Shown here: positions 207 through 13,697 of the stretch, piece by piece
How the letters are laid out: each line of letters starts with the position of its first letter
How positions within the stretch are numbered: the stretch's first letter is position 1
NCBI GenBank assembly: GCA_005397905.1
Contig: GCA_005397905.1_4318.1
Length of the DNA: 14,769 nucleotides
Strand: one strand, 5' to 3'
DNA from: Escherichia coli
GTDB taxonomy: Bacteria; Pseudomonadota; Gammaproteobacteria; Enterobacterales; Enterobacteriaceae
Notes under the pieces: model-generated
The model's input: only the letters and a program-made list of their open reading frames with translations
What the model was told of the DNA's origin: nothing
The model's database searches: none
Position numbers and translations under genes: made by a program

Positions 207-249
207 TAGCATTTTTTGTTAAAAGTCATTCCGATTTGATGGTAGTATT
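207..249 (+). promoter_or_regulatory. TAGCAC-type promoter-like element, variant TAGCAT-N3-TTGTTA, -10-like TAGTAT
   Basis: TAGCAT 207-212, TTGTTA 216-221, -10-like hexamer 243-248; upstream of the helicase ATG at 295. Its -10 overlaps the -10 of the divergent leftward promoter. Confidence 0.4.
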
Positions 250-275
250 GTACTCAATTAAACGCTACAAGACAA
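247..275 (-). promoter_or_regulatory. canonical sigma70-like promoter (TTGTCT-17-TACAAT) reading leftward
   Basis: On the minus strand: -35 TTGTCT (plus 275-270), 17-bp spacer, -10 TACAAT (plus 252-247); lies about 50 nt upstream of the leftward ATG at 193. Confidence 0.5.
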
Positions 276-294
276 TTTTTATAGGAATTTAGAT

Positions 295-2289
295 ATGTTG
301 CCTATCGAGAAGCTGGTTGCAAACTTCGATAAAGAAAGAATAAAACAGATTCAGAAAGATTATCAGTTTGGTGAGATAACTCCTTACGAATTCCAGTGCG
401 TAACATTTGATGCAATCGGAAAGGCTATTGGAAAGTACGAGGCACCATTTATCGCTGACCTTTCAGTATCTGCGGGTAAGACAATCATTCTCGCTATGAT
501 TGGAAAGCGTATGGAACAATTGGGATTGCCTTATATGGTTCTTTCTCGCCAGTCAGAAATTATCAGCCAGAACTCAGAGGAGCTTCGCAACTTCGGCATC
601 CGTAATAGCGTCTATTGCGCTGGCCTTAACGTTAAATCAGTTTACTACCCAACCATAGTTGCTAGCGAGGGTACGGCTGCTAATGGTTTGTTTAAGGGGC
701 TTGGTGACTATGTTCCGGCGGTTATCGCAATCGATGAATGTCACATGGTAGATCACATGGATATCGTGGAAGCTGAAGAGAACGAAGAAACATTTGAGCA
801 AATGAGCACAAAGAAAGGTGAGATGGTTTTCAAGGATGGAATTAACACTGGATTAATTGGCACTGGTCGCGCGCAGTACACACTAATCATTACCGAGATG
901 AAACGTCGCTGTCGTGAGAAGTATGGTCGTGAGCTAAGGATTTTTGGCCTTACTGGCAGCCCATATCGTAACAACGATCACATCGTAGTTAGTAACCCAA
1001 ACATCCGTGGATTCTGGCGGAAGACGGTAATTCAAGTACCAACCAATTACCTGGTTGACTTGGGGTTTGTTGTGCCTACTGTTTACGGCGAGGTAGGCGA
1101 TTTGGGTTACGATCTTAGTGAGTTTGTTCCCGATGGGAGCGATGGCGTGAAGGACTTTGGCAAGAAAGAAATGGATGCAATGGAAGAGAAAATCCACCAA
1201 AGCCAATCCATGACGCAAAAGATTATGCAATTTGCTGCAAAGTTCATGGATACTCGTAACGCGGCTCTTGTGACATGTTCTGGTAAGCGTCACTGCGAGG
1301 AAGCGGCAGCGGCGCTTCCTGATGGTGTGACATGGGCTATAGTAACTGACTCTACAGGTGAGAAAAAGCGCCGTGAGATTCTGGCTGATGCATATGAAGG
1401 TAAGTATAAATTCATATTTCAGATAGGTTGCCTTACAACCGGCGTGAACGTCCCGCCGTGGGACACATCAATCATTCTTCGCAAGGTTGGTAGCATCACG
1501 TTACTGATTCAGCTTTTGGGTCGAGGTATGCGAATTCTTAAGAAGAAGCATAAAGAAATGGGAATGATTAAGGAAGATCACGTGGTACTAGACTTCGCTG
1601 GCACCCTTGATGATATGGCGGAATTGTACTTTGACCCAATCATAGAGGAGGTGCAGGACCAGAAGTTTAAATCATCCCGCAAAGGCGGCGATGAGCCGAG
1701 GGTTTGTCCAGTATGCAGCTATGAGAACTCTCCGTTCGCCCGTCGATGCAATAACGTAATTGATGGAAAGCGTTGCGAACATTTTTTTACATTTCGCTTG
1801 TGTGAAGATATAGAGGACCCGCAGACAAAAGTTATTATTAAGAAAGGTTGTGGTGAGAAGAATGATATTGCTGCTAAAAACTGTCGATGCTGCGGCGAGA
1901 TGCTAATAGACCCGAACGCAAAGCTATCTGGGAAAATGTATCGTAAAGGCGACTGGTTGCGAGTCTATGACTTTAAGATTGGATTAACAAAGAATCAATC
2001 AGGGATTGTTGCCTCATACGAGGTCATGGCCCATAGTGGGGATAGGTTCCGAGCCTATGAGACGTTTTTTCCAGAGTCAGACCATCGCGTTTGCTCTGTA
2101 AAATGGAAATCATTTTGCTCTGCTCACATAGAGAACAGGACTGAGGCTTTTAGAATTGGCAGATTGCGTAATGCTAAGATGATTATGACTAATGCTCATC
2201 TTTTTCGAGCGCCATTAAGGATTACACACCGCAAGAACCAGAAGTCTCAAGATATTATCGCAAACAAATCATTTACTATGGAAGATTGA
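295..2289 (+). CDS. SF2 (DExH-box) DNA helicase with C-terminal Cys-rich zinc-ribbon-like region
   Basis: 664-aa ORF. Motif I SAGKT (DLSVSAGKTIILAMIG), motif II DECH (VIAIDECHMV), motif III-like LTGSP, motif VI QLLGRGMR; C-terminal Cys clusters CPVCSYEN...RRC and GCGEKNDIAAKNCRCCGE. Confidence 0.85.
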   Translation: MLPIEKLVANFDKERIKQIQKDYQFGEITPYEFQCVTFDAIGKAIGKYEAPFIADLSVSAGKTIILAMIGKRMEQLGLPYMVLSRQSEIISQNSEELRNFGIRNSVYCAGLNVKSVYYPTIVASEGTAANGLFKGLGDYVPAVIAIDECHMVDHMDIVEAEENEETFEQMSTKKGEMVFKDGINTGLIGTGRAQYTLIITEMKRRCREKYGRELRIFGLTGSPYRNNDHIVVSNPNIRGFWRKTVIQVPTNYLVDLGFVVPTVYGEVGDLGYDLSEFVPDGSDGVKDFGKKEMDAMEEKIHQSQSMTQKIMQFAAKFMDTRNAALVTCSGKRHCEEAAAALPDGVTWAIVTDSTGEKKRREILADAYEGKYKFIFQIGCLTTGVNVPPWDTSIILRKVGSITLLIQLLGRGMRILKKKHKEMGMIKEDHVVLDFAGTLDDMAELYFDPIIEEVQDQKFKSSRKGGDEPRVCPVCSYENSPFARRCNNVIDGKRCEHFFTFRLCEDIEDPQTKVIIKKGCGEKNDIAAKNCRCCGEMLIDPNAKLSGKMYRKGDWLRVYDFKIGLTKNQSGIVASYEVMAHSGDRFRAYETFFPESDHRVCSVKWKSFCSAHIENRTEAFRIGRLRNAKMIMTNAHLFRAPLRITHRKNQKSQDIIANKSFTMED

Positions 2290-2290
2290 C

Positions 2291-2710
2291 ATGCAAATTA
2301 CAGATAAAGAAGATTACATTGAGTTTTACCCAGGCCCGGTTAAGTCATGCCCTAAAGAGGATAACGAACAAATATTTTGCTCTGATTGGGTTAAGTATAA
2401 CTACCCGGAGATGGTGTTCTTCCACTGCGTGAATGAGGGCAAGAAGACCATTGGTCAAGCAAGAAAGGACCAGGCTAAGGGGCTTCTCAAAGGCGTATCA
2501 GACTGCATGTTTCTTATTCCTGAATCTATCCGAGGAAAATACCCTTTTGGGGCCATAGAGCTAAAGAGGGCTGGGAAGACTCAGGCAAGCACAGTCAGCG
2601 ATGAACAAAAGTCCTTCCTAAAAAGCGTAAGGGAATCAGGAGGATTCGCTGCTGTAGCTTACGGTCGCGAGGGTTTTCTGGCAGCATTCAAACAAATGAT
2701 TTCAAAATAG
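2291..2710 (+). CDS. VRR-NUC domain (PD-(D/E)xK) nuclease
   Basis: 139-aa ORF starting 2 nt after the helicase stop; ...SDCMFLIPE...GAIELKRAGKTQ... fits the D/E...ExK core of VRR-NUC. Helicase plus VRR-NUC adjacency is a common phage module. Confidence 0.7.
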   Translation: MQITDKEDYIEFYPGPVKSCPKEDNEQIFCSDWVKYNYPEMVFFHCVNEGKKTIGQARKDQAKGLLKGVSDCMFLIPESIRGKYPFGAIELKRAGKTQASTVSDEQKSFLKSVRESGGFAAVAYGREGFLAAFKQMISK

Positions 2711-2750
2711 CACGAATTGCTAAAGACGTATCGGTGAAGTGGTGTATTAT
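2708..2750 (+). promoter_or_regulatory. TAGCAC-type promoter-like element
   Basis: TAGCAC 2708-2713 (its TAG is the stop codon of the VRR-NUC gene), TTGCTA 2717-2722, 22-bp spacer, TATTAT 2745-2750. The -10 sits in the loop of a 7-bp dyad (2735-2741 / 2751-2757). Confidence 0.55.
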
Positions 2751-2783
2751 CACTTCATCGAAAACAAACTGGGAGATAAAAAA

Positions 2784-2984
2784 ATGAATACTATCTATAC
2801 TGCTAAATTCTACGAATCACGCAAAACTGGTTACAAATATGAATTAGGAATTACACCTGATTCTTATATTCTGGTTGATGTTGAAGATGAAAACTATGCA
2901 TTCGAAGTTAGTCCGACCTACAAAGATGATTTAGAGACTGTTAAAAACGCATTTGGCGAAAAATTTGATGAGGTATTAGAATAA
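2784..2984 (+). CDS. hypothetical protein (66 aa)
   Basis: ATG at 2784 preceded by GGGAGA; the track start at 2739 is GTG inside the promoter element, so the downstream ATG is preferred. Leader contains CATCGAAAAC. Confidence 0.55.
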   Translation: MNTIYTAKFYESRKTGYKYELGITPDSYILVDVEDENYAFEVSPTYKDDLETVKNAFGEKFDEVLE

Positions 2985-3202
2985 TGAAATTAACCTTTGA
3001 CAAGCAATGGGAAGTTTTTAAGCTAATGGCGGTTCATGAGCTAAAGAAATCTGGATATAACAAAAACCCGTTGGACTTAGCATTTTGCCTAGATATGAGT
3101 TTTGAGGAAGACTACTTGAACACTGATATTGAAACATGGCGCGACCGTATGATTGCTGATATCGAAGAAATGAAAAAAGATTGCCCGGAGGATTTCTTAT
3201 GA
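2984..3202 (+). CDS. hypothetical protein (72 aa)
   Basis: ATG overlaps the upstream stop (TAATG); GAGGT about 10 nt upstream. Confidence 0.5.
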   Translation: MKLTFDKQWEVFKLMAVHELKKSGYNKNPLDLAFCLDMSFEEDYLNTDIETWRDRMIADIEEMKKDCPEDFL

Positions 3203-3399
3203 TTACTGCTACATGTGTAAAAACGAACGGCTCGTTCACTTTATTTAATGAGTATGAATTCAAGATAGACCCGATAAATGACCAGGTTGAAATAGTTAGC
3301 GATGACGGATTTGCATGGAAGTTACATAATGAATTTGATGGTTACTACGGGTGTAATGATTCGAAAGGCAAGCATGTAAGTTTTCTTGTTTATGAGTAA
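3199..3399 (+). CDS. hypothetical protein (66 aa)
   Basis: ATG at 3199 overlaps the upstream stop (ATGA) with GGAGG 8 nt upstream; the track start at 3181 is TTG. Stop TAA directly precedes a TAGCAC element. Confidence 0.5.
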   Translation: MITATCVKTNGSFTLFNEYEFKIDPINDQVEIVSDDGFAWKLHNEFDGYYGCNDSKGKHVSFLVYE

Positions 3400-3400
3400 A

Positions 3401-3443
3401 TAGCACTTTTTGTTAAAACTCCAATCCATGGATTGATTATATT
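3401..3443 (+). promoter_or_regulatory. TAGCAC-type promoter-like element
   Basis: TAGCAC 3401-3406, TTGTTA 3410-3415, 22-bp spacer holding a perfect 12-bp palindrome AATCCATGGATT (3423-3434), TATATT 3438-3443. Confidence 0.55.
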
Positions 3444-3473
3444 AATCACACCAATAACGCAGAGGATTTAATA

Positions 3474-4176: not shown

Positions 4177-5313
4177 ATGGCAACTGCAAAGATTACCAAC
4201 GAACAACTTCGTGAAGAACTGGCAAATGGCATGACAAACAAAGAAATCGCAGAGAAATACGGAATGAACATTCGCAATGTTGAATTGCGTCGTAGTAAAT
4301 TGGCAAAATCCGGCGAGCTTCATGGAAACCCTGGGATTAAGAAGCTAGTTCCTGACGGCTATTTGGTCAAAGGGACTTCAACGATGATTGATGCGGAAGG
4401 TAACGAGAAGATCCGGTGGGTTAAGACCTCAATTGATAATGAGCGCCTTGAGGTTCTTATGGAGCAGGCTCGAGAAGCATTTTGCTCTGAGTTGCCAAAG
4501 GCAGTTCCATCTGAATCACCTAATGTTAACTTTGACGATAACACGCTTGCGATGTATCCGGTTTTTGATTTACACATTGGAGCAATGGCACACAAACATG
4601 AGTGCGGCGAAAACTACGACACAGCGACAGCCGAGAAGGTAATGAATGGATTCTTTGATTACGCCGTAGATAAGGCCCCAAACTCAAAGAATGCTGTATT
4701 GGTATTGGGTGGCGATTTCCTACATTACGATTCCCTGGAGGCTAAAACCCCGGCCTCAGGCCATATCTTAGACTCTGACAGTCGTTACGCTAAGATTGTT
4801 TATGTTGCAATCCGTTCAGTACGACGTGCAATTTCTCGAATGATGGAAAAGCATCAAGTCATTGATATTAAAGTAATAAGCGGAAATCACGACGAGGCTG
4901 GAATGGTTTGGCTCCGCGCTGCACTTGCTGCATTTTATGAATATGAGCCTCGCGTAAATGTTGATGTTAGCCCAGCTGCAATGATGATGACCAGCTTTGG
5001 AACGACGCTTATTGGATACACTCACGGGCACCAAATGCGGAAAGCCGATACTCGACTAACTGTTATGGCAACTGATTTTCGTAAGTTATTTGGTCAAAGT
5101 GAGTATGTTTACACACATAGTGGCCACTGGCATTCGCAGAAGATTACAGAAACAAACTTGGGAATTGATGAGGTTCATGGGCAGCTGGGAAGTCCTGATG
5201 CGTACTCCGCAAATGGCGGCTGGCGCTCTCAACGTCAAGCGGCAGTTATTGTCTACCATAAAGAATTCGGTGAAGTTGGGCGATTCATTTGTCGCCCTAA
5301 AATGTTTAGCTAA
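4177..5313 (+). CDS. N-terminal helix-turn-helix domain fused to a calcineurin-like metallophosphoesterase (Mre11/SbcD-type fold)
   Basis: 378 aa. HTH-like MTNKEIAEKYGMNIRNVELRRSKL at the N-terminus; phosphoesterase motifs in order: DLH (VFDLHIGAMAH), GDxxxxD (VLGGDFLHYD), GNHDE, THGH, GHWH. AAGGA RBS upstream. Confidence 0.8.
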   Translation: MATAKITNEQLREELANGMTNKEIAEKYGMNIRNVELRRSKLAKSGELHGNPGIKKLVPDGYLVKGTSTMIDAEGNEKIRWVKTSIDNERLEVLMEQAREAFCSELPKAVPSESPNVNFDDNTLAMYPVFDLHIGAMAHKHECGENYDTATAEKVMNGFFDYAVDKAPNSKNAVLVLGGDFLHYDSLEAKTPASGHILDSDSRYAKIVYVAIRSVRRAISRMMEKHQVIDIKVISGNHDEAGMVWLRAALAAFYEYEPRVNVDVSPAAMMMTSFGTTLIGYTHGHQMRKADTRLTVMATDFRKLFGQSEYVYTHSGHWHSQKITETNLGIDEVHGQLGSPDAYSANGGWRSQRQAAVIVYHKEFGEVGRFICRPKMFS

Positions 5314-5356
5314 TAGCGCTTTTTGTTAAAAAACCCCCAGGTTACTGGGGTATAAT
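5314..5356 (+). promoter_or_regulatory. TAGCAC-type promoter-like element (variant TAGCGC)
   Basis: TAGCGC 5314-5319 directly after the stop TAA 5311-5313; TTGTTA 5323-5328; hairpin CCCCAG-GTTA-CTGGGG (5335-5350) in the spacer; TATAAT 5351-5356. Confidence 0.55.
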
Positions 5357-5425
5357 TATCTTGCTTTCAACGAGGAGAATAAATAATTAAAATTGTGGGT
5401 TATTAATAAGATGGAGAATTAGATA

Positions 5426-5980
5426 ATGACCAAATTGTTTATACTGAATGGGCCAGCTGGGGTCGGCAAAGATACAATTGCTGACGTCATGGTTAGTTCT
5501 GGCGCTTGCTGTGAGAAGGTTTCTTTTAAGTCACCCGTGTTTGATGTGGCTAAGGGTATGTTATCAAGCGATGAATTTGATTGGTTTATTGAAAACTACA
5601 ACAATAGAGACGAGAAAGATAAACCTCAGAAAATTCTCGGAGGTAAAACTATTCGAGAGTTTATGATATGGATTAGCGAATCAGTAATGAAACCTGTTTT
5701 TGGTAATGATGTCTTCGGCAGGAGATTGGCTAGTTCACTTGGTGATGGTTGCTATATTTGTGCTGACGGTGGATTTGCTAGCGAGATTGAGCCACTGATC
5801 GACGCTGGTGTTAAGGTCACGTTAATCAGGTTGCATAGGGCAGGGTACACATTTTATGGCGATAGTCGCTCATATATTCACGGGGTGTGTGAAAGAGAGA
5901 TTGATGTTCATGTTGTTGATGGTGATATTAATGGAACATCAGCATTGGTAAGGCACGTAATAAATAGCACGAATTGCTAA
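5426..5980 (+). CDS. deoxynucleoside monophosphate kinase-like P-loop kinase
   Basis: 184 aa; Walker A LNGPAGVGKDT; the N-terminal stretch KLFILNGPAGVGKDTIADVMVS resembles the N-terminus of the T4 gene 1 dNMP kinase as I recall it. GGAGA RBS. Protein ends ...NSTNC with the stop TAA supplied by a TTGCTAA element. Confidence 0.65.
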   Translation: MTKLFILNGPAGVGKDTIADVMVSSGACCEKVSFKSPVFDVAKGMLSSDEFDWFIENYNNRDEKDKPQKILGGKTIREFMIWISESVMKPVFGNDVFGRRLASSLGDGCYICADGGFASEIEPLIDAGVKVTLIRLHRAGYTFYGDSRSYIHGVCEREIDVHVVDGDINGTSALVRHVINSTNC

Positions 5981-6007
5981 AGATAATAGTAAAAACTGGG
6001 TTATCAT
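5965..6007 (+). promoter_or_regulatory. TAGCAC-type promoter-like element
   Basis: TAGCAC 5965-5970 inside the 3' end of the kinase gene; TTGCTA 5974-5979 (its TAA is the kinase stop); 22-bp spacer; TATCAT 6002-6007; leader CATCGAAACGAG...AACGAGGA. Confidence 0.55.
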
Positions 6008-6046
6008 TAACACATCGAAACGAGATGAACCAAACGAGGAAAAAAA

Positions 6047-7774: not shown

Positions 7775-9358
7775 TTACCCCAGCAGTCGCGGATTAATGT
7801 AAACCTTATCACCAATCAGGCAGGTGTAGTTTTTCTCATCAAGCATCGGAAGTAAATGGTCTTTAATCTTAGCCATTACGCCAGCCTGACCCTCAAACGG
7901 CCTAACCTTGCGTGCTGATTCATATAGTGAACGAAGTCCTACAACGCCCTTACTGTTCTTTCCTTGCTTAATCAATATGTCAATTAACTTGTTCATCTCT
8001 GCATTATCGCCAGCGTGACCAGCCGAACTAGCAGCAGAAAGGTAAGTTTTACTTTGTTCGTAAAACATGATAATTGCCTCTTGCATTGTCTCTAGGTCAA
8101 TTTGCCTTGACTTCAATGGCCGCTCATTATTCTTGCATGACCAGTTTCTTATTGTATGAAGAATTGCCGCCATTCGAATAACTTGCTTATCCATCTTGCC
8201 AAGAGCGCCACGCAGCATAGAGTGAGAGTATTTACCTCCATCCGCAAGGTGCGGCTCCATATCCTGGCGTGCTAGATTAAGATATCGCATAGCTGATTCT
8301 GAAATAGATAAATTAACTTGTGTTTCGTTCATAATGTTGTGAATCATTCTAAAGTAATCAGCTTTCAATTCGCCATCAACCGGTTCGTATGTCGACTCAC
8401 CTTTTTCATTAATAAAAACGCGATTTCCAATCATGGGGCGCTCCCTAACCAGCCAGAATCGCTCAGATACACCTATACCACGAGCACCAGCCTCCATAAT
8501 TGCATTGATTGTTTCATCCTGAGCTATTACAGCTATTGCGCCAAGCGCGGTAAACATCAAGTTGTTGTCAGCATTGGCGCGAGATATTGATATATTTCCA
8601 GAATCCCACGCCTTAAGAACTAACTCACTGTTTGTTTTCTTGCTGCCATCTCCGTAGGTCATCCCAAGCAATGAGTTAATTGCCGTTGCTTCGTCTGATA
8701 TTACCGCAAAGTTACCCTGTCGACTGTTTATTCGAGCCAGACCTTCAGGTGTTGTATCAGATACCGGAAAGACAATATCACACAGCTTTTCTAACTTCTC
8801 TTCTAAATCCTCTTTCTCCTCAAACAATGACGCCATTTCGGATGGCGACTTCTCCTGCTTCATCTCTTTCGCCAGCGCTGATAGCTTGGCCATAATCTTT
8901 TTTCTTTCACGCTTTCGCTGGTCATTGATTCGCTCAACCTCGGCTACCATTGGAGCTATTGCGAGTGAGTTAATGGCTGACTTACCAGTCGATGGTGGCT
9001 GGCTGGTTACTACGTACAGTGAGGTTGGTTGCTGCGTTCCGTGATACTCAACAGTAAAACGCCCTAGCATGGCAGCGGAAATACACCCCAGGAAATGCAT
9101 GTATGCGGAAGACTCTGGGAACTGAACAGATCGAGCGATATTGGATGAGAGTTTGCCAACAACATCAATATCATTTCCGAGTGAGATTACGGGATACTTG
9201 TCATTTGCAGCATCAATCTCCACTGGTGCTTTCCAGAATGATTGAGACTGGCGATAGCCATTTGCATTAATGGCGACTCGCAGTGGTGGGAGGTTGTCTG
9301 CGGCAGCAATTGCCATAACCTGTTCAACAGATAGTTTATCTTCGTTGAAATCAAACAT
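7775..9358 (-). CDS. P-loop NTPase of unknown function (527 aa), RecA/DnaB-like Walker A
   Basis: Walker A-like VVTSQPPSTGKSAI (about residues 115-128), Walker B-like FAVISDE (about 217-223), a highly charged predicted helix between them; GGAGAG RBS. N-terminal 43 aa and C-terminal 55 aa are homologous to the 181-aa ORF at 12482-13027. Confidence 0.8.
   Translation of the reverse strand: MFDFNEDKLSVEQVMAIAAADNLPPLRVAINANGYRQSQSFWKAPVEIDAANDKYPVISLGNDIDVVGKLSSNIARSVQFPESSAYMHFLGCISAAMLGRFTVEYHGTQQPTSLYVVTSQPPSTGKSAINSLAIAPMVAEVERINDQRKRERKKIMAKLSALAKEMKQEKSPSEMASLFEEKEDLEEKLEKLCDIVFPVSDTTPEGLARINSRQGNFAVISDEATAINSLLGMTYGDGSKKTNSELVLKAWDSGNISISRANADNNLMFTALGAIAVIAQDETINAIMEAGARGIGVSERFWLVRERPMIGNRVFINEKGESTYEPVDGELKADYFRMIHNIMNETQVNLSISESAMRYLNLARQDMEPHLADGGKYSHSMLRGALGKMDKQVIRMAAILHTIRNWSCKNNERPLKSRQIDLETMQEAIIMFYEQSKTYLSAASSAGHAGDNAEMNKLIDILIKQGKNSKGVVGLRSLYESARKVRPFEGQAGVMAKIKDHLLPMLDEKNYTCLIGDKVYINPRLLG
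9233..9262. repeat. 30-nt perfect inverted repeat, copy A (inside the NTPase gene)
   Basis: rc of 9233-9262 = AATGGCTATCGCCAGTCTCAATCATTCTGG, identical to 12584-12613, while flanking synonymous sites have diverged. Confidence 0.9.
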
Positions 9359-9388
9359 TACTTCTCTCCGTATTGTTTTTGAGAGGCC

Positions 9389-9431
9389 ATTATATCAACG
9401 GCCTCTTATAAAGCATTATCAATTTGTGCTA
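9389..9431 (-). promoter_or_regulatory. TAGCAC-type promoter-like element
   Basis: Minus strand reads TAGCAC-AAA-TTGATA, 22 bp, TATAAT (plus 9431-9389); the -10 lies in the loop of dyad AGAGGCC / GGCCTCT (9382-9388 / 9400-9406). Confidence 0.55.
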
Positions 9432-9544
9432 TTAATTACTCTTAATCCACTTTATGCACATCCATGCTCCGGAAACATAGAGCGCTAGCTTTGCTAACTC
9501 AGCCGCTAAGTGTATAAATAAAGCAAAATCAGAAATAAGCTCAG

Positions 9545-9784
9545 TCATTTTTTAATCTCCATCTCCATAATTTCATAACTTATGTAATTATTTATCATTC
9601 CAATAAGTGATTTTGGGTATGTTTGCATATGATTCTTGGCTGAATCTTCATCAAGATGCGCTGATATGTTGTGAAAATTGTATTCATAATCCATGCCCAT
9701 TAGTATGTATATCTTATCGTGCGCCTTAATGAGGTTATTTGATTTTATTTCCCCAAGCGACCATCCTTTTCCTTTTCTAATCAT
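9545..9784 (-). CDS. hypothetical protein (79 aa)
   Basis: ATG overlaps the stop of the upstream minus-strand gene (ATGA). Confidence 0.5.
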   Translation of the reverse strand: MIRKGKGWSLGEIKSNNLIKAHDKIYILMGMDYEYNFHNISAHLDEDSAKNHMQTYPKSLIGMINNYISYEIMEMEIKK

Positions 9785-10134: not shown

Positions 10135-10170
10135 TTCTTTTACCCTTCGTTGTTTCGTTTCGATGAGTTT

Positions 10171-10213
10171 AATATACATGAAAAGCCACGAAGGGTTTTA
10201 GCAATTAGTGCTA
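10171..10213 (-). promoter_or_regulatory. TAGCAC-type promoter-like element
   Basis: Minus strand TAGCAC-TAA-TTGCTA (plus 10213-10199), 22 bp, TATATT (plus 10176-10171). Confidence 0.55.
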
Positions 10214-10362
10214 TTTCGTGCTTTTTCTATGGCCTTGAGCATAATCTCATGACTCTCAAGCAAGTCATCGCGGAACCAATCACCGCAAGGCCAGCCTTTT
10301 CCGCTGTAGGTGCTGATTACCTCAAGATCGAAATAATTTATCTCAGATGGTAGAAGCATCAT
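10198..10362 (-). CDS. hypothetical small protein (54 aa)
   Basis: Minus-strand ATG at 10362 overlapping the upstream stop (ATGA), GAGGTG RBS; MMLLPSEINYFDLEVISTYSGKGWPCGDWFRDDLLESHEIMLKAIEKARNSTNC; ends in the same ...NSTNC-stop inside the TAGCAC element as the kinase gene. Confidence 0.45.
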   Translation of the reverse strand: MMLLPSEINYFDLEVISTYSGKGWPCGDWFRDDLLESHEIMLKAIEKARNSTNC

Positions 10363-10598: not shown

Positions 10599-10608
10599 AT
10601 CTCAATCC

Positions 10609-10788
10609 TCAAATAAATGGTAAACATTCATTACAGCCAAGTCCATCACAGCACATGAATTCATCATCTGACTGGAATTGCTTAGCCAAATCAATGTCCA
10701 ACTTTCCGCGCACCACAAGGTCGGTGTAATCTTCGTTCAGCCCAATCAGTGAGCATTCGTGGAGTAACTCATCTTTATCAATCTTCAT
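10609..10788 (-). CDS. hypothetical small Cys-rich protein (59 aa)
   Basis: Second in-frame ATG (MKIDKD...) preferred over track start 10794 on AAGGGG spacing; C-terminal CCDGLGCNEC cluster suggests metal binding. Confidence 0.45.
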   Translation of the reverse strand: MKIDKDELLHECSLIGLNEDYTDLVVRGKLDIDLAKQFQSDDEFMCCDGLGCNECLPFI

Positions 10789-10816
10789 ATCCATCCCCTT
10801 GTTGTTAGTGAGTTAA

Positions 10817-10859
10817 CTGTAGCCTCGCCAGCAACAGATGTCTTTAGCAAAAAGTGCTA
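10817..10859 (-). promoter_or_regulatory. TAGCAC-type promoter-like element (weak -10)
   Basis: Minus strand TAGCAC-TTT-TTGCTA (plus 10859-10845); the -10 at the expected distance is only TACAGT/CTACAG-like. Confidence 0.4.
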
Positions 10860-10861
10860 CT

Positions 10862-11053
10862 TCAGAAATTGATGTTCTCGACAACATGAACCATCTGATA
10901 ACCAAGGCGATAACTGTCACCGAGGATTAATCGACCCATAAACTGATCGTTTGTGAAGCTCTCCTTACCCATAGTGCGAAGCGTTCCGTTATGGATGATG
11001 GTGTCACCAATCTTTACGTCATTCTTATGCGTCAAAACAATATTATTGCTCAT
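10862..11053 (-). CDS. hypothetical protein (63 aa)
   Basis: ATG (MSNNIV...) with GAGGTG 6 nt upstream; the track start 11062 is GTG. Stop TGA lies 2 nt before a TAGCAC element. Confidence 0.5.
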   Translation of the reverse strand: MSNNIVLTHKNDVKIGDTIIHNGTLRTMGKESFTNDQFMGRLILGDSYRLGYQMVHVVENINF

Positions 11054-11067
11054 TATCAACACCTCTA

Positions 11068-11250
11068 TTACATGTGTTTCAGGTAGAAAGCGATTTCTTT
11101 AATGTTGTCTTCTGGATGAGCCTTCACGACTACCGCTAACATCTTCTCAACCAGAGTCTTGCTGCTCTCAGGGTTATAACCTTCCTGAACCAGTAGGGCG
11201 ATAGTGTTTTCGACGGTGACTGGTGAGTTTTTGTTGATGCGCTTAGCCAT
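11068..11250 (-). CDS. hypothetical protein (60 aa)
   Basis: First gene of the leftward operon; AAGGA RBS; leader CATCGAAACGACACGCACTAAAGGAAACC. Confidence 0.5.
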   Translation of the reverse strand: MAKRINKNSPVTVENTIALLVQEGYNPESSKTLVEKMLAVVVKAHPEDNIKEIAFYLKHM

Positions 11251-11287
11251 GATGGTTTCCTTTAGTGCGTGTCGTTTCGATGAGGTA

Positions 11288-11331
11288 ATAATAGCAAATC
11301 ACAGTCTTTTGATTATTAGCAAAAAGTGCTA
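11288..11331 (-). promoter_or_regulatory. TAGCAC-type promoter-like element
   Basis: Minus strand TAGCAC-TTT-TTGCTA (plus 11331-11317), 23 bp, TATTAT (plus 11293-11288). Confidence 0.5.
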
Positions 11332-11357
11332 TTCGTTAGATTTATGTATTGTTGCAG

Positions 11358-11418
11358 ATATTGCAATGATTCACATGACTATTGCACATATAGCAATATT
11401 GCTTCCGATGCAATGATG
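11358..11418. promoter_or_regulatory. cluster of ATTGCAAT-type palindromic operator-like sites
   Basis: ATATTGCAATGAT (11358-11370), ATTGCACATATAGCAAT (11381-11397) and GATGCAATGATG (11407-11418) share TTGCA / TGCAAT half-sites. Confidence 0.35.
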
Positions 11419-11419
11419 T

Positions 11420-11502
11420 TTTTGATTGTTGCGAAAAGTGAAATGAAGTGGTGATTGAGTGAATGAAGGATTGATGGACTACCATACAAGTTGATTTTGA
11501 TT
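11420..11502. repeat. direct-repeat array with GATTG core (five copies) plus TGAA(A)TGAAG repeats
   Basis: TTGATT/GATTGA at 11422, 11453, 11469, 11491 and 11497; TGAAATGAAG (11439-11448) and TGAATGAAGG (11460-11469). Confidence 0.4.
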
Positions 11503-11645
11503 CTGGCTGAGCCATTTTGAGCATACGCGTTATAAAAGTTATGCCGTGTGGATGCGCCAGCTCCCCGCGGGAATCATGTACGCCTATCACGCTAAATTAC
11601 GCAATGGTTACATAATAATATCTATATATATCAACCATTTAGTAA

Positions 11646-11666
11646 TATTATTATTATTATTATTAT
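11646..11666. repeat. (TAT)7 trinucleotide microsatellite in an AT-rich tract
   Basis: Seven uninterrupted TAT units at 11646-11666, flanked by (TA)n and further AT-rich sequence. Confidence 0.8.
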
Positions 11667-11726
11667 ATACGTGTATATAATGTAGATAGTGGATATTGGA
11701 TATTGCGATAGTTTTCTATGATTTTT

Positions 11727-11762
11727 TCCTACACTTGTAGGAATGGTACTACACTGTAGGAA
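11727..11762. promoter_or_regulatory. two adjacent palindromic operator-like sites sharing a TGTAGGA half-site
   Basis: TCCTACA-CT-TGTAGGA (11727-11742) and CTACA-C-TGTAGG (11749-11760), centres about 21 bp apart. Confidence 0.4.
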
Positions 11763-11891
11763 TAAATAGGCATATATGGGCCAATCCACCATAAAAACTG
11801 ATGTACAAGCTGTACACGGTTTTACATTGAGCTATATCTGGGGTTGTGAGCTGAAAAGCGTAAATAAATTGAATTAAACCATGAATAACAC

Positions 11892-11920
11892 TTGATAACA
11901 TGTAACCGCGATGATATTAT
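11892..11920 (+). promoter_or_regulatory. canonical sigma70 promoter with extended -10 (TTGATA-17-TGaTATTAT)
   Basis: -35 TTGATA 11892-11897, 17-bp spacer, TG at 11912-11913, -10 TATTAT 11915-11920; about 40 nt upstream of the ATG at 11961 (CAGGAG RBS). Confidence 0.65.
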
Positions 11921-11960
11921 GCACCCATCTTAACGAAGGAAACCAATCAGGAGTATATCT

Positions 11961-12482
11961 ATGTCAAATCGCATTCAACCAGTAAGCCTTGGTGATGTTA
12001 TCCGCTACATGGCTAAGCAGGCGCTTAAGGCCGACAATCGGACTTTCCATGTTCCAATCCACCTGATAGCTCGCCAGGTTTACGGGCTAACGTCTGATGA
12101 TATTGGTCGAATCAGCGCTGAGGATCTCGAGAGTGGCGGCAAATACAGTTTGGCAAAGTTGAAGGCTTCATATGTCTCTAACACAGTTGCCAGGATGCCA
12201 GAGATTCAGGAGGCGAACGTTCGGGCTAAGCTGTCAATCAAGGACGGAGACTTTGGGGATGATGTTGATGTTCGATGCGCATACATCACCTTGGTCGATG
12301 GGGCAATACAGACAGGAAAGAGAGTGATGGCCAACAACCAGGTAGCCGATAAGGCTGTAAGCGACTTTAAGGCTAGAATCCTCAAGCTGATGCCATCAGT
12401 GACTGAGTTTGAAGGTGATGAGATTACCGGAGCCATCAAAGCAATTAAGATGTACCAGGAAATGATTAAGGAGGCAAAATAA
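11961..12482 (+). CDS. hypothetical protein (173 aa), first gene behind the canonical promoter
   Basis: ATG with CAGGAG RBS; no recognisable motif. Confidence 0.65.
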   Translation: MSNRIQPVSLGDVIRYMAKQALKADNRTFHVPIHLIARQVYGLTSDDIGRISAEDLESGGKYSLAKLKASYVSNTVARMPEIQEANVRAKLSIKDGDFGDDVDVRCAYITLVDGAIQTGKRVMANNQVADKAVSDFKARILKLMPSVTEFEGDEITGAIKAIKMYQEMIKEAK

Positions 12483-13027
12483 TGGGGATGTTTGATTTTA
12501 ACGAAGATAAGCTAACTAATGATGAGATTATGAAGATTGCCATGCGGGATGGACTTCCTCCGCTACGGGTTGCAATCAACGCTAATGGCTATCGCCAGTC
12601 TCAATCATTCTGGTGTAGTGTTGAGGAGTTGCTCAGCGCAAAGCTCAACAGCAAGTCTGGCGTAGTTATGTGTAAGATTCACGGACAGAGCAGGAATGGC
12701 AAGGGGGTTGTCGGAATTCGATCAACATATGAAGCGCTGAGAAAGGTCAAGCCATTCGCCGGACTCAACGGAGTCATGCATGACCTGAAAAATAACATCC
12801 TGCCATCGTTACAGGACGCAGGAATCATCTGCTTAATCGGGGATAAGATTTACGTGCATCCATACATCGTTGGCATGCATGCGATAGAAGTTGAAGAGTG
12901 GTGCGACACCTGGGCTGTTGATGAGCATGCTAGTAGACTACCATACCACTTACGGTACGACGAAGATGAGGTAGAGAAGGCGATTGAGTTCTACCGGAAA
13001 GCTAAATCACTCCTGACCGGTAAATAG
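12482..13027 (+). CDS. hypothetical protein (181 aa), truncated paralog of the 527-aa NTPase lacking the P-loop core
   Basis: MFDFNEDKL...LPPLRVAINANGYRQSQSFW matches the NTPase N-terminus (20 consecutive residues identical); KGVVGIRSTYEALRKVKPF...CLIGDKIYVHP is about 55% identical to the NTPase C-terminus; no Walker motifs. AAGGAGG RBS; stop TAG is part of a TAGCAC element. Confidence 0.75.
   Translation: MGMFDFNEDKLTNDEIMKIAMRDGLPPLRVAINANGYRQSQSFWCSVEELLSAKLNSKSGVVMCKIHGQSRNGKGVVGIRSTYEALRKVKPFAGLNGVMHDLKNNILPSLQDAGIICLIGDKIYVHPYIVGMHAIEVEEWCDTWAVDEHASRLPYHLRYDEDEVEKAIEFYRKAKSLLTGK
12584..12613. repeat. 30-nt perfect inverted repeat, copy B (inside the paralog gene)
   Basis: AATGGCTATCGCCAGTCTCAATCATTCTGG at 12584-12613, in inverted orientation relative to 9233-9262. 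Confidence 0.9.
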
Positions 13028-13067
13028 CACTAATTGCTAAACAATAAATCGGGTAGTCAGCTATGAT
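13025..13067 (+). promoter_or_regulatory. TAGCAC-type promoter-like element
   Basis: TAGCAC 13025-13030 (TAG is the stop of the paralog gene), TTGCTA 13034-13039, 22 bp, TATGAT 13062-13067. Confidence 0.5.
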
Positions 13068-13098
13068 TACCATATCAACCAAACGAGAGGGAAGAAAG

Positions 13099-13203
13099 AT
13101 GATTATTATTAAAGATTTTCATGGCGGCGAGCTGATGATTCAGAAATCATTCCATTTAAAGACAGGTATCAGCCTTATTGAGATTGAGTTCGACTGGGAC
13201 TGA
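13099..13203 (+). CDS. hypothetical small ORF (34 aa), possibly the 5' part of an interrupted gene
   Basis: ATG 13099 with GAGGG RBS and conserved leader; the same frame stays open for 31 more codons after its TGA (to 13299). Confidence 0.3.
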   Translation: MIIIKDFHGGELMIQKSFHLKTGISLIEIEFDWD

Positions 13204-13295
13204 TGTCAGGATGGTCATAGCTACAAGCACCTGAGTTTAGAAAATGCAGTAAAGCTTCGTGACGAGATGTCGAAACTTATTGAGGAATTATCAAA

Positions 13296-13523
13296 ATGAT
13301 TACCATCAACCTGTCAGACAAGCAGGCGGCAGAACTCAAGTCCATGATGAACTCTTTCATGCCAACGCGCTGCGACGGTCAGCGTAATGTGGTAGATGAA
13401 GTTAGAGACCAAATCAACAATCAGCAATTCGACGTTAGTGACTTCGAGTCATCACGTCAATATGAGGCGATGAGTGTCAACGCTGCATACCTGGCTAATT
13501 GGGATAAGGAAACGAAGAAATGA
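13296..13523 (+). CDS. hypothetical protein (75 aa)
   Basis: ATG with GAGGA RBS. Confidence 0.55.
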   Translation: MITINLSDKQAAELKSMMNSFMPTRCDGQRNVVDEVRDQINNQQFDVSDFESSRQYEAMSVNAAYLANWDKETKK

Positions 13524-13657
13524 TTTACATCCACACTTACTACACTGGCAAGTTCAATAGCGTTAAGCACGTTCGGGTTCACGATACCTACGATAGCGCA
13601 AAGGCTCAGTGGTTGGTTCTTGGCGGCGATATTAATTCATATAGAATCGCTGAGTAG
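13520..13657 (+). CDS. hypothetical small protein (45 aa)
   Basis: ATG overlapping the upstream stop (ATGA); MIYIHTYYTGKFNSVKHVRVHDTYDSAKAQWLVLGGDINSYRIAE; stop TAG is the TAG of a TAGCAC element. Confidence 0.4.
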   Translation: MIYIHTYYTGKFNSVKHVRVHDTYDSAKAQWLVLGGDINSYRIAE

Positions 13658-13697
13658 CACGAATTGTTAAAACAGCATTGGGGTAATTTGTTATAAT
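13655..13697 (+). promoter_or_regulatory. TAGCAC-type promoter-like element
   Basis: TAGCAC 13655-13660, TTGTTA 13664-13669, 22 bp, TATAAT 13692-13697 within dyad TGGGGTAAT/ATTGCCCCA; leader CATCGAAACTAACGAGGAAG. Confidence 0.55.

What the first reader, a model, noticed from the sequence alone, without database searches (positions are those of the whole stretch)
207..13697. Eleven copies of a composite element TAGCAC-N3-TTG(C/T)TA, 22 bp, TATAAT-like hexamer, doubling as stop codon and promoter
Instances on the plus strand start at 207, 2708, 3401, 5314, 5965, 13025 and 13655; on the minus strand at 9431, 10213, 10859 and 11331. In nearly all, a TATAAT-like hexamer (TATTAT, TATATT, TATAAT, TATCAT, TATGAT) follows TTG(C/T)TA after exactly 22 bp, which is too long for TTGCTA to be a normal sigma70 -35. 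The upstream part is an imperfect dyad (TAGCA-N5-TGCTA), like a dimer binding site. Its TAG or TAA serves as the stop codon of the upstream gene in at least seven cases, and two unrelated proteins end in the same NSTNC because they read through it. This looks like a phage-specific promoter class, possibly activator-dependent or sigma-remodelled, and distinct from the two canonical sigma70 promoters at 247-275 and 11892-11920. An intercistronic RNA processing signal is the alternative.
Basis: seen in the sequence. Interest (0 to 1): 0.8.

Follow-up and report, generated by a model that had tools for sequence, protein, structure and literature searches.

The report
Repeated promoter–terminator cassettes of T1-like phage
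Eleven copies of an ~80-base intergenic cassette, whose core was already published as an unexplained 21-base repeat of T1-like phages, most likely act as this phage's main early promoters, with the repeat standing in for the usual -35 box; the same cassette also ends the upstream gene and marks where genes have been swapped.

Summary
Exactly the 11 listed sites match TAGCAC-N3-TTGYTA (0.15 expected). Eight are followed by a -10-like hexamer at exactly 22 bp, two at 23 and one at 21.

The window comes from an Rtp-like Drexlerviridae phage. The repeat is already published for TLS as aaATAGCACnnnTTGnTAAAA, with a note that it also occurs in T1, Rtp and Rogue1. Its function was left open.

In 285 unique copies from relatives, 77% have the hexamer at exactly 22 bp. 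G at -14 and CA at -1/+1 are also conserved, and nothing resembling a -35 box sits at 17 bp. The dyad is therefore centred at about -42, the position of a class II activator.

About half the copies carry a variable-sequence hairpin pairing -24..-19 with -6..-1. It is strong mainly where an upstream gene ends at the repeat, so it looks like an attenuator.

Indels between relatives are bounded by the repeats, as with T4-type PeSL cassettes.

Best reading: a composite stop / attenuator / sigma70 promoter cassette in which the repeat replaces -35. The repeat is probably bound by the phage's Cro-like regulator, which is made from one of only two canonical promoters in the window. That binding is inferred. 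No 5'-end mapping for this family was found.

The parts
205..262 (+). Cassette 1. Repeat AATAGCATTTTTTGTTAAAA at 205-224, TGG-TAGTAT -10 at 243-248 (21-bp spacer), predicted start about 255. Drives the helicase gene (ATG 295). No hairpin. The repeat lies in the 5' UTR of the divergent regulator gene.
2706..2764 (+). Cassette 2. Repeat at 2706-2725; its TAG at 2708 is the stop of the VRR-NUC gene. Hairpin 2731-2761 (-17.8 kcal/mol, z -5.3) encloses the -10 TATTAT at 2745-2750. CATCGAAAAC start about 2757; ATG 2784.
3399..3457 (+). Cassette 3. Repeat at 3399-3418, with the upstream stop TAA at 3397-3399 abutting it. Weak palindrome CAATCCATGGATTG. -10 TATATT at 3438-3443; start about 3450; ATG 3474.
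5312..5370 (+). Cassette 4. Repeat at 5312-5331, after the TAA stop of the exonuclease gene. GC hairpin 5335-5350, followed by TATAAT 5351-5356 as a U-rich tail (terminator-like). Start about 5363; ATG 5426 (dNMP kinase).
5963..6021 (+). Cassette 5. Repeat at 5963-5982, read through by the kinase ORF (ends NSTNC, stop is the TAA of TTGCTAA). -10 TATCAT at 6002-6007; CATCGAAACG start about 6014; ATG 6047.
9375..9433 (-). Cassette 6. Repeat at 9433-9414. Hairpin 9406-9382 (-15.6 kcal/mol, z -4.7) encloses TGA-TATAAT at 9394-9389. Start about 9382; ATG 9358 (DUF3987 helicase).
10157..10215 (-). Cassette 7. Repeat at 10215-10196, read through by ORF 10362-10198 (ends NSTNC). -10 TATATT at 10176-10171; CATCGAAACG start about 10164; ATG 10134.
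10802..10861 (-). Cassette 8. Repeat at 10861-10842, with the upstream TGA stop 2 nt before it. -10 TACAGT at 10821-10816 (23-bp spacer); start about 10809; ATG 10794.
11274..11333 (-). Cassette 9. Repeat at 11333-11314. First element of the leftward early operon, with no upstream gene and no hairpin. TGC-TATTAT at 11293-11288 (23-bp spacer); CATCGAAACG start about 11281; ATG 11250.
13023..13081 (+). Cassette 10. Repeat at 13023-13042; its TAG at 13025 is the stop of the 181-aa gene. Hairpin 13052-13071 (-10.3 kcal/mol, z -3.8) overlaps TATGAT at 13062-13067. Start about 13074; ATG 13099.
13653..13711 (+). Cassette 11. Repeat at 13653-13672; its TAG at 13655 is a stop. Hairpin 13679-13704 (-14.2 kcal/mol, z -3.2) encloses TGT-TATAAT at 13692-13697. 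CATCGAAACT start about 13704; ATG 13728.
247..275 (-). Canonical sigma70 promoter (TTGTCT-17-TACAAT) for the Cro-like regulator gene. Its -10 (252-247) overlaps the -10 of cassette 1 (243-248) on the other strand.
1..193 (-). 5' part of the regulator gene, a homologue of Rtp52 / T1 gp23 / TLS gp57. It has a Cro-like helix-turn-helix and is the candidate protein for binding the repeat.
11892..11920 (+). Canonical sigma70 promoter (TTGATA-17-TATTAT with TG) for the first rightward operon (173-aa DUF7174 protein and 181-aa protein). The first rightward repeat follows directly after these two genes.
10860..11316 (-). Two-gene module bounded by repeats 8 and 9. It is absent from phage JulesPiccard, whose single repeat aligns to both window repeats.
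5329..5979 (+). dNMP-kinase module bounded by repeats 4 and 5. It is absent at this position in Rtp and JulesPiccard.

Best explanation
Each of the 11 sites is one copy of a family-wide Drexlerviridae intergenic cassette of about 80 bp.

Anatomy, in order:
1. The stop codon of the upstream gene, often the repeat's own TAG or TAA.
2. A 19-bp repeat, AATAGCAC-WWW-TTGYTAAA.
3. A spacer of fixed length but free sequence.
4. A sigma70-type -10 hexamer exactly 22 bp after TTGYTA, often with G or TG upstream.
5. A conserved C(-1)A(+1)TCGAAAC start region.
6. A short A/C-rich leader, then the ribosome-binding site and ATG.

Proposed mechanism:
- Host sigma70 RNA polymerase initiates at the CA, using the -10.
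- No -35 box lies at 17 bp. The repeat occupies -50 to -32, and its dyad TAGCA-N5-TGCTA is centred at -42.
- The repeat therefore supplies the missing upstream contact, most likely as the site of a dimeric helix-turn-helix activator touching polymerase from the class II position.
- The best candidate is the phage's own Cro-like regulator (Rtp52 / T1 gp23). It is transcribed from one of the window's two canonical sigma70 promoters. That promoter overlaps, back to back, the repeat-type promoter of the helicase gene.
- This would give a cascade: canonical immediate-early promoters first, then the repeat-class promoters.

Two further functions:
- In roughly half of the copies a hairpin of variable sequence pairs -24..-19 with -6..-1, or lies wholly in the spacer with the T-rich -10 as its tail. 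It forms in read-through RNA from the upstream gene and attenuates or ends that transcript.
- The identical repeats also act as recombination points at which gene modules are gained and lost.

Shown here: the anatomy, its conservation, the spacing, the hairpin covariation, and the repeat-bounded indels. Inferred: initiation at the CA, a positive role for the repeat, and the identity of the binding protein.
For: Enrichment and spacing.
- 11 copies against 0.15 expected.
- In 84 copies from five genomes, 67 have a -10-like hexamer at exactly 22 bp, against a 2.2% background.
- In 285 unique copies, 77% are at 22 bp and 89% at 21-23 bp. The conservation profile is that of sigma70: A-11 84%, T-7 84%, T-12 69%, G-14 77%, C-1 66%, A+1 78%.
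- The spacer from -31 to -18 carries almost no information, yet its length is fixed. That argues for a stereospecific link between the repeat and the -10.
- Positions -35 to -30 read AAAA(C)N, so there is no -35 box.
- Only 4 of the 11 window copies have a full TGn extended -10.

Taxonomic breadth.
- The same composite is found in T1, TLS, Rtp, JulesPiccard and Klebsiella phage GH-K3.

Contrast with canonical promoters.
- Canonical sigma70 sites are under-represented in the window, 24 against 34.4 +/- 5.7 expected. The two good intergenic ones drive the regulator gene and the first rightward operon.
- TLS likewise has only three canonical promoters, one of which (P57) drives the regulator.
- The regulator's -10 overlaps the repeat-promoter -10, and the repeat sits in the regulator's leader. 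This holds in the window and in TLS.

The candidate regulator.
- Pfam P22_Cro, E 4e-6 but below the curated cut-off; PHROG 2856 'transcriptional regulator'.
- Its predicted helix-turn-helix domain superposes on the all-alpha Cro proteins of Xfaso 1, N15 and P22, with TM 0.64-0.70.
- It is 51-67% conserved between subfamilies. The first immediate-early protein, DUF7174, is only 19-28% conserved.

The hairpin.
- Mean MFE is -10.8 kcal/mol, against -7.0 for chimeras joining the 5' half of one copy to the 3' half of another (p 3e-35) and -6.2 for random genomic 43-mers.
- Covariation in the fixed register i+j = -25 has z up to 6.
- The sense strand folds better than the antisense strand, p 2e-11.
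- Copies with an upstream co-directional ORF have a median of -13.2 kcal/mol, against -7.8 for copies without one, p 2e-6.
- In the window, hairpins are significant at 5 copies and absent at the two copies that have no upstream gene.

Recombination.
- Indels are bounded by the repeats.
- Homology breakpoints fall in the repeat core 8 times against 1.8 expected, p 5e-4.
Against: - No transcript 5' ends, in vitro transcription or binding data exist for any member; everything rests on sequence.
- Residues at the start of the regulator's putative recognition helix vary between subfamilies (TPQA / SNQT / NLKT), although the repeat is invariant.
- Because the regulator is a core gene of the whole family, its co-occurrence with the repeat does not discriminate between candidates.
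- Cro-fold proteins are usually repressors.
- The repeat abuts the regulator gene partly because that intergenic region is only about 100 bp long.
- Some copies in relatives lack a -10, lie inside genes, or are antisense to the neighbouring genes.
- The leftward early operon has only a repeat-type promoter, which is awkward if a phage protein must be made first.
- Homogenisation of the repeat by recombination could exaggerate its apparent information content.
Confidence: 0.6

Rival explanations
1. Factor-independent promoter. Host sigma70 polymerase recognises the cassette on its own, and the repeat acts as an UP-like or displaced -35 contact for alpha-CTD or sigma region 4. These would then simply be the phage's strong early promoters.
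For: - G-14 is present in 77% and T-15 in 45% of copies, so many are extended -10 promoters that need no -35.
- The 3' half of the repeat is A/T-rich (TTTTTGTTAAAA).
- The leftward early operon starts with a repeat-type promoter and has no canonical one upstream.
- The TLS authors noted a resemblance to UP elements.
Against: - The invariant positions include G and C bases (TAGCAC, TTGC) and do not fit the A/T-tract UP consensus (established knowledge).
- A 22-bp spacer is outside the range in which sigma region 4 can reach a -35 hexamer (established knowledge: about 15-21 bp, optimum 17).
- Seven of the 11 window copies lack a full TGn.
- The dyad symmetry is left unexplained.
Confidence: 0.2
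2. Operator or 'stoperator'. The repeat is the binding site of the Cro-like protein acting as a repressor. That protein would shut off early promoters, or block elongation, later in infection.
For: - The regulator has a Cro fold, and some database records call it a repressor.
- The copies are many, intergenic and aligned with transcription, like the stoperators of mycobacteriophage L5. The TLS authors drew this analogy.
- The repeat lies in the regulator's own leader, which suggests autorepression.
Against: - A repressor site needs no exact phasing, yet the spacing is fixed at 22 bp across a spacer of free sequence.
- Without the repeat most of these promoters have neither a -35 box nor TGn, so there would be little activity to repress.
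- The phage is virulent.
- The two roles are not exclusive: lambda cI at OR2 both activates and represses (established knowledge).
Confidence: 0.15
3. A host DNA-binding protein, for example Lrp, binds the repeat and activates these promoters.
For: - The E. coli Lrp consensus yAGhAwATTwTdCTr (quoted in PMC5554404) has the same 15-bp TAG...CTA geometry as the repeat.
- The TTT/GCTA variants differ from it at only 2 positions.
- Such a mechanism would work immediately on infection.
Against: - Most copies have 3 mismatches to the Lrp consensus (182 of 285), and the nearly invariant C6 violates it.
- The conserved flanks (AA on the 5' side, AAA on the 3' side) lie outside the Lrp site.
- The repeat's information content is far higher than is usual for host regulator sites.
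- No other host consensus known to me fits.
Confidence: 0.05
4. Purely RNA-level signal. On this view the cassette is an intercistronic processing or stability signal, and the hexamer is not a promoter element.
For: - The hairpin covaries and is more stable on the sense strand.
- It is linked to the presence of an upstream gene.
- The repeat itself could form a 5-bp RNA stem.
Against: - Copies with no upstream transcript (207, 11331) keep the repeat, the spacing, the hexamer and the CATCGAAAC start, but have no hairpin.
- The per-position conservation of the hexamer is that of sigma70 recognition, including G-14.
- There is no Rfam match in the window.
- The hairpin is absent from about a third of copies, whereas the -10 is present in about 90%.
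Confidence: 0.05

Closest known systems
The 21-nt direct repeat of T1-like phages, aaATAGCACnnnTTGnTAAAA (TLS re-annotation, PMC11447400; said there to occur also in T1, Rtp and Rogue1)
   Same: Same consensus, same alignment with the direction of transcription, same intergenic position about 76 nt before start codons, and a similar copy number of roughly 17-21 per complete genome (the window is a 14.8-kb fragment with 11). The window's phage is about 85% identical to Rtp.
   Different: Nothing differs in the element itself. That paper left the function open (stoperator, enhancer site or UP element). It did not describe the -10 at 22 bp, the conserved start, the hairpin register or the repeat-bounded indels.
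PeSL (promoter-early stem-loop) cassettes of T4-type phages (PMC2839356, PMC4122927)
   Same: Both are composite intergenic cassettes containing the upstream stop codon, an early promoter, a stem-loop (often GGGG...CCCC, with G-T pairs) lying between -35 and -10 or overlapping the -10, and then the SD and ATG. Both flank small genes of unknown function and mediate indels by recombination between copies.
   Different: PeSLs carry a canonical sigma70 -35 box at normal spacing plus an AT-rich upstream region. Here the -35 is missing and a GC-containing dyad lies 5 bp further upstream. There is no sequence homology. Promoter and terminator activity of PeSLs was shown experimentally; here it has not been.
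Class II activator-dependent sigma70 promoters (CRP or FNR at -41.5, lambda cI at OR2/PRM at -42; phage Mu Mor- and C-dependent promoters). From established knowledge.
   Same: A good -10, a poor or absent -35, and a dyad site for a dimeric helix-turn-helix protein overlapping the -35 region. The dyad is centred at -42 as computed from the conserved hexamer and CA start.
   Different: The activator is not identified and binding is untested. About 20 near-identical sites per genome, fused to stop codons and attenuator hairpins, is unlike any of these systems.
T4 middle promoters (MotA box plus AsiA-remodelled sigma70). From established knowledge.
   Same: A phage-specific class in which a TGCT-containing box replaces -35 while the sigma70 -10 is kept.
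   Different: The MotA box is centred at -30, 11-13 bp from the -10. Here the box is at -40 to -35, 22 bp away. No MotA or AsiA domain was found among the window's proteins.
Stoperators of mycobacteriophage L5 (analogy drawn in PMC11447400)
   Same: Many short, oriented intergenic sites bound, in L5, by one phage helix-turn-helix protein.
   Different: L5 stoperators have no fixed relation to a -10 hexamer and act in a temperate phage's immunity. Here the spacing to the -10 is fixed and the phage is virulent.

Membership tests
T1-like 21-nt direct repeat (PMC11447400) | Consensus aaATAGCACnnnTTGnTAAAA | tested here: met
   All 11 window copies fit with 0-1 mismatch in the core. The logo from 285 copies matches the published consensus.
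T1-like 21-nt direct repeat (PMC11447400) | Intergenic, aligned with transcription, about 76 nt upstream of a start codon, many copies per genome | tested here: met
   All 11 are co-oriented with the downstream gene. The distance from repeat to ATG is 65-112 nt, mostly 74-82. Relatives carry 17-21 copies per genome.
sigma70 -35/-10 promoter | -10 hexamer with A-11 and T-7, and a start 6-8 nt downstream | tested here: met
   Present at a fixed position in 89% of 285 copies, with CA conserved 7 nt after the hexamer. This is sequence evidence only.
sigma70 -35/-10 promoter | -35 hexamer 16-18 bp upstream of the -10 | tested here: not met
   Positions -35 to -30 read AAAA(C)N, and the TTGYTA hexamer is 22 bp away. 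None of the 11 is called by the canonical scan through its TTGYTA hexamer; the only nearby call, 13038-13067, pairs a different hexamer (TAAACA) with cassette 10's -10.
sigma70 -35/-10 promoter | Initiation by E. coli holoenzyme in vivo or in vitro | not testable with these tools
   No 5'-end data for Drexlerviridae were found.
Class II activator-dependent promoter | Dyad-symmetric site centred near -41.5 and overlapping the -35 region | tested here: met
   TAGCA-N5-TGCTA spans -49 to -35, centred at -42, given the conserved hexamer and CA start.
Class II activator-dependent promoter | An identified activator that binds the site and contacts polymerase | not testable with these tools
   There is only a candidate: the Cro-fold regulator made from a canonical promoter.
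PeSL-type composite promoter/terminator cassette | Stem-loop between -35 and -10 or overlapping the -10, acting on upstream transcription | tested here: inconclusive
   The structure and its covariation are shown, as is its link to upstream ORFs. Terminator activity was not measured.
PeSL-type composite promoter/terminator cassette | Indels and replacements between relatives bounded by the cassettes | tested here: met
   Window 10860-11316 and 5329-5979 are modules bounded by repeats. Breakpoints are enriched in the repeat core, p 5e-4.
PeSL-type composite promoter/terminator cassette | Canonical sigma70 consensus promoter within the cassette | tested here: not met
   No -35 box at 17 bp.
sigma54 -24/-12 promoter (TGGCAC-N5-TTGCW) | GG and GC doublets exactly 10 bp apart | tested here: not met
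   The repeat has AG, not GG (A2 in 99%). The spacing is 2 bp shorter (N3, not N5). The C of the GC doublet is T in 37% of copies.
T4 middle (MotA/AsiA) promoter | MotA box centred at -30, with MotA and AsiA encoded by the phage | tested here: not met
   The box is centred near -38. There are no MotA or AsiA Pfam hits in the window's proteins. The whole genome of this phage was not available.
Lrp-binding site | Match to yAGhAwATTwTdCTr | tested here: inconclusive
   Typically 3 mismatches (range 1-5). The chance of a random 15-mer having 3 or fewer mismatches is 1.1e-3.

The most novel reading that the evidence does not exclude
The repeat-class promoters are a previously uncharacterised way of redirecting host sigma70 polymerase. 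A small Cro-fold phage protein, with an invariant N-terminal INGNNG/basic arm, would replace -35 recognition at about 20 promoters from a site centred at -42. Each promoter would be physically fused to the upstream gene's stop codon and attenuator hairpin. A single 80-bp cassette would then punctuate termination, re-initiation and modular gene exchange for the whole early genome of the T1 family.
Probability: 0.3. Interest if true: 0.7.

Novelty: new member of a known kind. Interest (0 to 1): 0.45.

Why it matters
T1 is one of the classical coliphages and a notorious laboratory contaminant, yet how it orders its transcription is essentially unknown. Annotators find only three to ten canonical promoters per genome. 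If the repeat cassettes are the real early/middle promoters, they explain how about 20 transcription units are driven. They also give a concrete regulon and a candidate regulator to test. They offer compact, portable promoter/attenuator parts. Finally, they explain why the early regions of these phages are mosaics of small genes exchanged at fixed points.

Tried and rejected
- sigma54 promoter. The TGGCAC/TTGC resemblance fails on the invariant GG and on spacing.
- T4 MotA box. The position is wrong, and there are no MotA or AsiA domains.
- UP element. The repeat contains invariant G and C bases and does not fit the A/T-tract consensus (knowledge).
- Host Lrp. Only a 3-mismatch fit for most copies.
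- Known RNA family. No Rfam hit in the window.
- DUF7174, the first immediate-early protein, as the repeat binder. It is too poorly conserved (19-28%) for an invariant site.
- Covariation between the regulator's recognition helix and the repeat across subfamilies. This was not possible, because the repeat is identical in T1, TLS, Rtp-like phages and a Klebsiella Webervirus.
- Compensatory changes at orthologous sites. My ortholog sets were small. One clear compensatory pair was seen at the 9431 site (A:T to C:G). Elsewhere whole hairpins were replaced rather than repaired.
- Literature. No transcription-start or RNA-seq data for Drexlerviridae. The T1 (2004) and Rtp (2006) genome papers are not held, so I cannot say how far they described the element. 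One broad sequence-word search returned only noise.

Full report
**1. Checking the observation**

A search for TAGCACNNNTTGYTA with up to one mismatch returns 11 hits. Dinucleotide-preserving shuffles give 0.15 on average and never more than 2.

- the repeat extends to AATAGCAC-WWW-TTGYTAAA;
- a TATAAT-like hexamer follows at 22 bp in eight copies, 23 bp in two and 21 bp in one;
- five nucleotides after the hexamer comes a conserved CATCGAAAC-type sequence;
- then an A/C-rich leader of 15-63 nt (mostly 24-40), a Shine-Dalgarno sequence and an ATG.

Stop codons behave as follows:
- the repeat's TAG is the stop of the upstream ORF three times;
- the TAA of TTGCTAA is the stop twice, and those two ORFs (5426-5980 and 10198-10362 on the minus strand) do both end in NSTNC;
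- four more stops abut the repeat;
- two copies have no upstream gene.

**2. What the window is, and what is already known**

The window is about 85% identical to coliphage Rtp and to BASEL phage JulesPiccard, both Drexlerviridae.

The 2024 re-annotation of phage TLS reports a 21-nt direct repeat, aaATAGCACnnnTTGnTAAAA:
- 21 copies;
- aligned with transcription;
- about 76 nt before start codons;
- 'also found in T1, Rtp and Rogue1 (unpublished observations)'.

The TLS authors found only three canonical sigma70 promoters. They left the repeat's role open, mentioning stoperators, enhancer-binding sites and UP elements. So the core of the finding is a published feature with an unresolved function. 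I found no transcription-start mapping for this family in the searchable library. I could not read the T1 (2004) or Rtp (2006) genome papers.

**3. Is it a promoter?**

I scanned the complete genomes of Rtp, T1, TLS, JulesPiccard and the Klebsiella Webervirus GH-K3, plus T1-like IMG/VR contigs.

Spacing. In the first 84 copies, 67 have a hexamer with A at -11, T at -7 and at least 4 of 6 matches exactly 22 bp after TTGYTA. No other offset has more than 8, and the background rate is 2.2%. In 285 unique copies, 77% are at 22 bp and 89% at 21-23 bp.

Per-position conservation is what sigma70 recognition predicts:

| Position | Base | Frequency |
|---|---|---|
| -12 | T | 69% |
| -11 | A | 84% |
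| -10 | T | 74% |
| -7 | T | 84% |
| -14 | G | 77% |
| -1 | C | 66% |
| +1 | A | 78% |

Between the repeat and -18 the sequence carries almost no information, yet the length is fixed. Positions -35 to -30 read AAAA(C)N, so there is no -35 box at the normal distance. TTGYTA lies at -40 to -35, too far for sigma region 4 (established knowledge of spacer limits). The dyad TAGCA-N5-TGCTA spans -49 to -35 and is centred at -42. That is the position of class II activators such as CRP, FNR or lambda cI at PRM (established knowledge).

In the window only four copies have a full TGn extended -10, so most would be weak without an upstream contact. A fixed distance across a free-sequence spacer is what a stereospecific promoter element needs. 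A simple operator does not need it.

**4. Two promoter classes and a candidate factor**

Canonical sigma70 sites are under-represented in the window, 24 against 34.4 +/- 5.7 expected. Only two good ones are intergenic.
- One, at 11892-11920 (+), precedes the first rightward operon: a 173-aa DUF7174 protein and a 181-aa protein. The first rightward repeat overlaps the stop codon of that operon.
- The other, at 275-247 (-), drives the homologue of Rtp52 / T1 gp23 / TLS gp57, whose 5' end occupies window 193-1.

What is known about that protein:
- It hits Pfam P22_Cro (E 4e-6, below the curated cut-off) and PHROG 2856 'transcriptional regulator'.
- Its AlphaFold model has a mean pLDDT of 76, with about 90 over the helical core.
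- The helix-turn-helix domain superposes on the dimeric all-alpha Cro proteins of Xfaso 1, N15 and P22, with TM 0.64-0.70 normalised to the target, although Foldseek E-values are weak at 0.03-0.75.
- It is a core gene of about 825 Drexlerviridae records.
- It is 51-67% conserved between subfamilies, with an invariant N-terminal INGNNG/basic segment.
- By contrast, DUF7174 is only 19-28% conserved, which fits poorly with an invariant DNA site.

The regulator's -10 (252-247, minus strand) overlaps the -10 of the helicase gene's repeat-type promoter (243-248, plus strand). The repeat at 207-221 lies in the regulator's leader. TLS shows the same arrangement, P57 against DR11.

This suggests a switch. 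The regulator is made early from a canonical promoter. It binds the repeats and turns on the repeat class. At its own locus it hands polymerase to the helicase promoter while shutting itself off. All of this is inference. The variable residues at the start of the putative recognition helix and the usual repressor role of Cro proteins count against it.

**5. A second layer: the hairpin**

The segment from the end of the repeat to +8 folds much better than controls:

| Set | Mean MFE (kcal/mol) | Fraction at or below -12 |
|---|---|---|
| 285 real copies | -10.8 | 49% |
| Chimeras (5' half of one copy + 3' half of another) | -7.0 (p 3e-35) | 13% |
| Random genomic 43-mers | -6.2 | 6% |

Further properties of the hairpin:
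- In the fixed register i+j = -25, positions -24..-19 covary with -6..-1 (z 3-6) using GC, AT, TA, CG and GU pairs. The stem therefore ends at -1, just before the predicted start, and the -10 sits in the loop and the 3' arm.
- A second type lies wholly in the spacer with the T-rich -10 as its tail. The T1 record annotates three of these as terminators.
- The sense strand folds better than the antisense strand, p 2e-11, which points to RNA.
- Copies with an upstream co-directional ORF ending at the repeat have a median MFE of -13.2 kcal/mol. Copies without one have -7.8 (p 2e-6).
- In the window five hairpins are significant: 2708, 9431, 13025, 13655 and 5314. The two copies with no upstream gene have none.

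So the hairpin belongs to the upstream transcript, as an attenuator or 3'-end structure. It is not part of the promoter proper.

**6. A third layer: gene exchange**

- The window carries a two-gene module (10860-11316) between two repeats. JulesPiccard has a single repeat there, which aligns to both window repeats. Its upstream flank matches the 11331 copy and its downstream flank matches the 10859 copy.
- The dNMP-kinase module (5329-5979) is likewise bounded by repeats and is missing from Rtp and JulesPiccard at that position.
- Homology breakpoints against all fetched relatives fall in the repeat core 8 times against 1.8 expected (p 5e-4). They fall in the cassettes 21 times against 6.7 expected (p 2e-6).
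- This is the behaviour described for T4-type PeSL cassettes. [quoted passage not shown]

**7. Rivals considered**

- Factor-independent recognition is possible for the copies with TGn, but it does not explain the GC-containing dyad.
- A repressor or stoperator role fits the Cro fold but not the fixed phasing. It may coexist with activation.
- Host Lrp fits only loosely, with 3 mismatches typical.
- A purely RNA role is contradicted by the first-in-operon copies.
- sigma54 and MotA-type promoters fail on defining features.
- There is no Rfam match.

**8. Verdict**

It is best described as the T1-family counterpart of PeSL cassettes, with an unusual dyad at -42 in place of the -35 box. What binds that dyad is the open and testable question.

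Noticed in passing
window 11348-11446 (also 11391-11404): Just upstream of the leftward repeat promoter there are three ~22-nt iterons: ATTGTTGCAGATATTGCAATGA, ACTATTGCACATATAGCAATAT and ATTGTTGCGAAAAGTGAAATGA. The first two contain dyads of TTGCA/TGCAA-type half-sites with the same 5-N5-5 geometry as the repeat; the third is degenerate. A near-palindrome AGCAATATTGCT is also present. This could be an operator, origin or packaging region.
   Followed up: partly
window 243-252: Back-to-back overlapping promoters. The -10 of the helicase repeat-type promoter (plus strand, 243-248) and the -10 of the regulator's canonical promoter (minus strand, 252-247) share 2 bp. TLS has the same overlap, P57 against DR11.
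   Followed up: partly
window 12482-13027 vs 7775-9358: The 181-aa immediate-early protein begins with the same ~40 residues as the DUF3987 helicase (DNA similarity of 12488-12613 to the start of Rtp67). It also matches the C-terminal end of a helicase PHROG. It looks like a truncated paralogue of the replicative helicase.
   Followed up: no
window 4177-5313: The SbcD/Mre11-like 'DNA repair exonuclease' has a weak N-terminal helix-turn-helix (GerE / sigma70 region 4 / HTH_24, E about 0.01, below cut-offs). This would be a nuclease with a possible sequence-reading domain, in a genome that recombines at fixed repeats.
   Followed up: no
TLS L003 35224-35832(-); IMG/VR loci L080, L121: In relatives, other proteins also gain a repeat-encoded tail. 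The TLS regulator ends in DSTDC by reading through the repeat that precedes the primase gene. Other regulators end in STNS.
   Followed up: no
Rtp L001 33763+, T1 L002 34903+, JulesPiccard L004 27297+; T1 15085-, 18849-; TLS 15041-: Conserved 'orphan' repeats that are antisense to the neighbouring genes (next to the primase and tail-fibre genes, or within the late region). Those at Rtp 33763+, T1 34903+ and JulesPiccard 27297+ have no -10 at 22 bp; the late-region copies keep -10-like hexamers (TATACA, TAAGAT). Their role is unknown.
   Followed up: no
Rtp L001 6317+, 21394+; T1 41957+; TLS 48194-: HNH homing-endonuclease genes in relatives are each preceded by their own repeat cassette, as if the cassette travels with mobile genes.
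   Followed up: no
window 5335-5350 (minus strand): The hairpin of cassette 4, followed by the complement of the repeat's A-tract (GTTTTTTAAC), scores as an intrinsic terminator on the opposite strand. Repeat plus hairpin may therefore also stop antisense transcription.
   Followed up: no
window 9432-9548 (-): An unlisted 38-codon ORF (MTELISDFALFIHLAAELAKLALYVSGAWMCIKWIKSN) with a good ribosome-binding site ends in TAA-TAG at the repeat of cassette 6. It is hydrophobic and has no Pfam hit.
   Followed up: partly
window 11596-11770: A non-coding AT-rich stretch with an (ATT)n run at about 11645-11667, several inverted repeats, and a pair of CTACAC(T)TGTAGGAAT motifs. It corresponds to the start of the Rtp record.
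   Followed up: no
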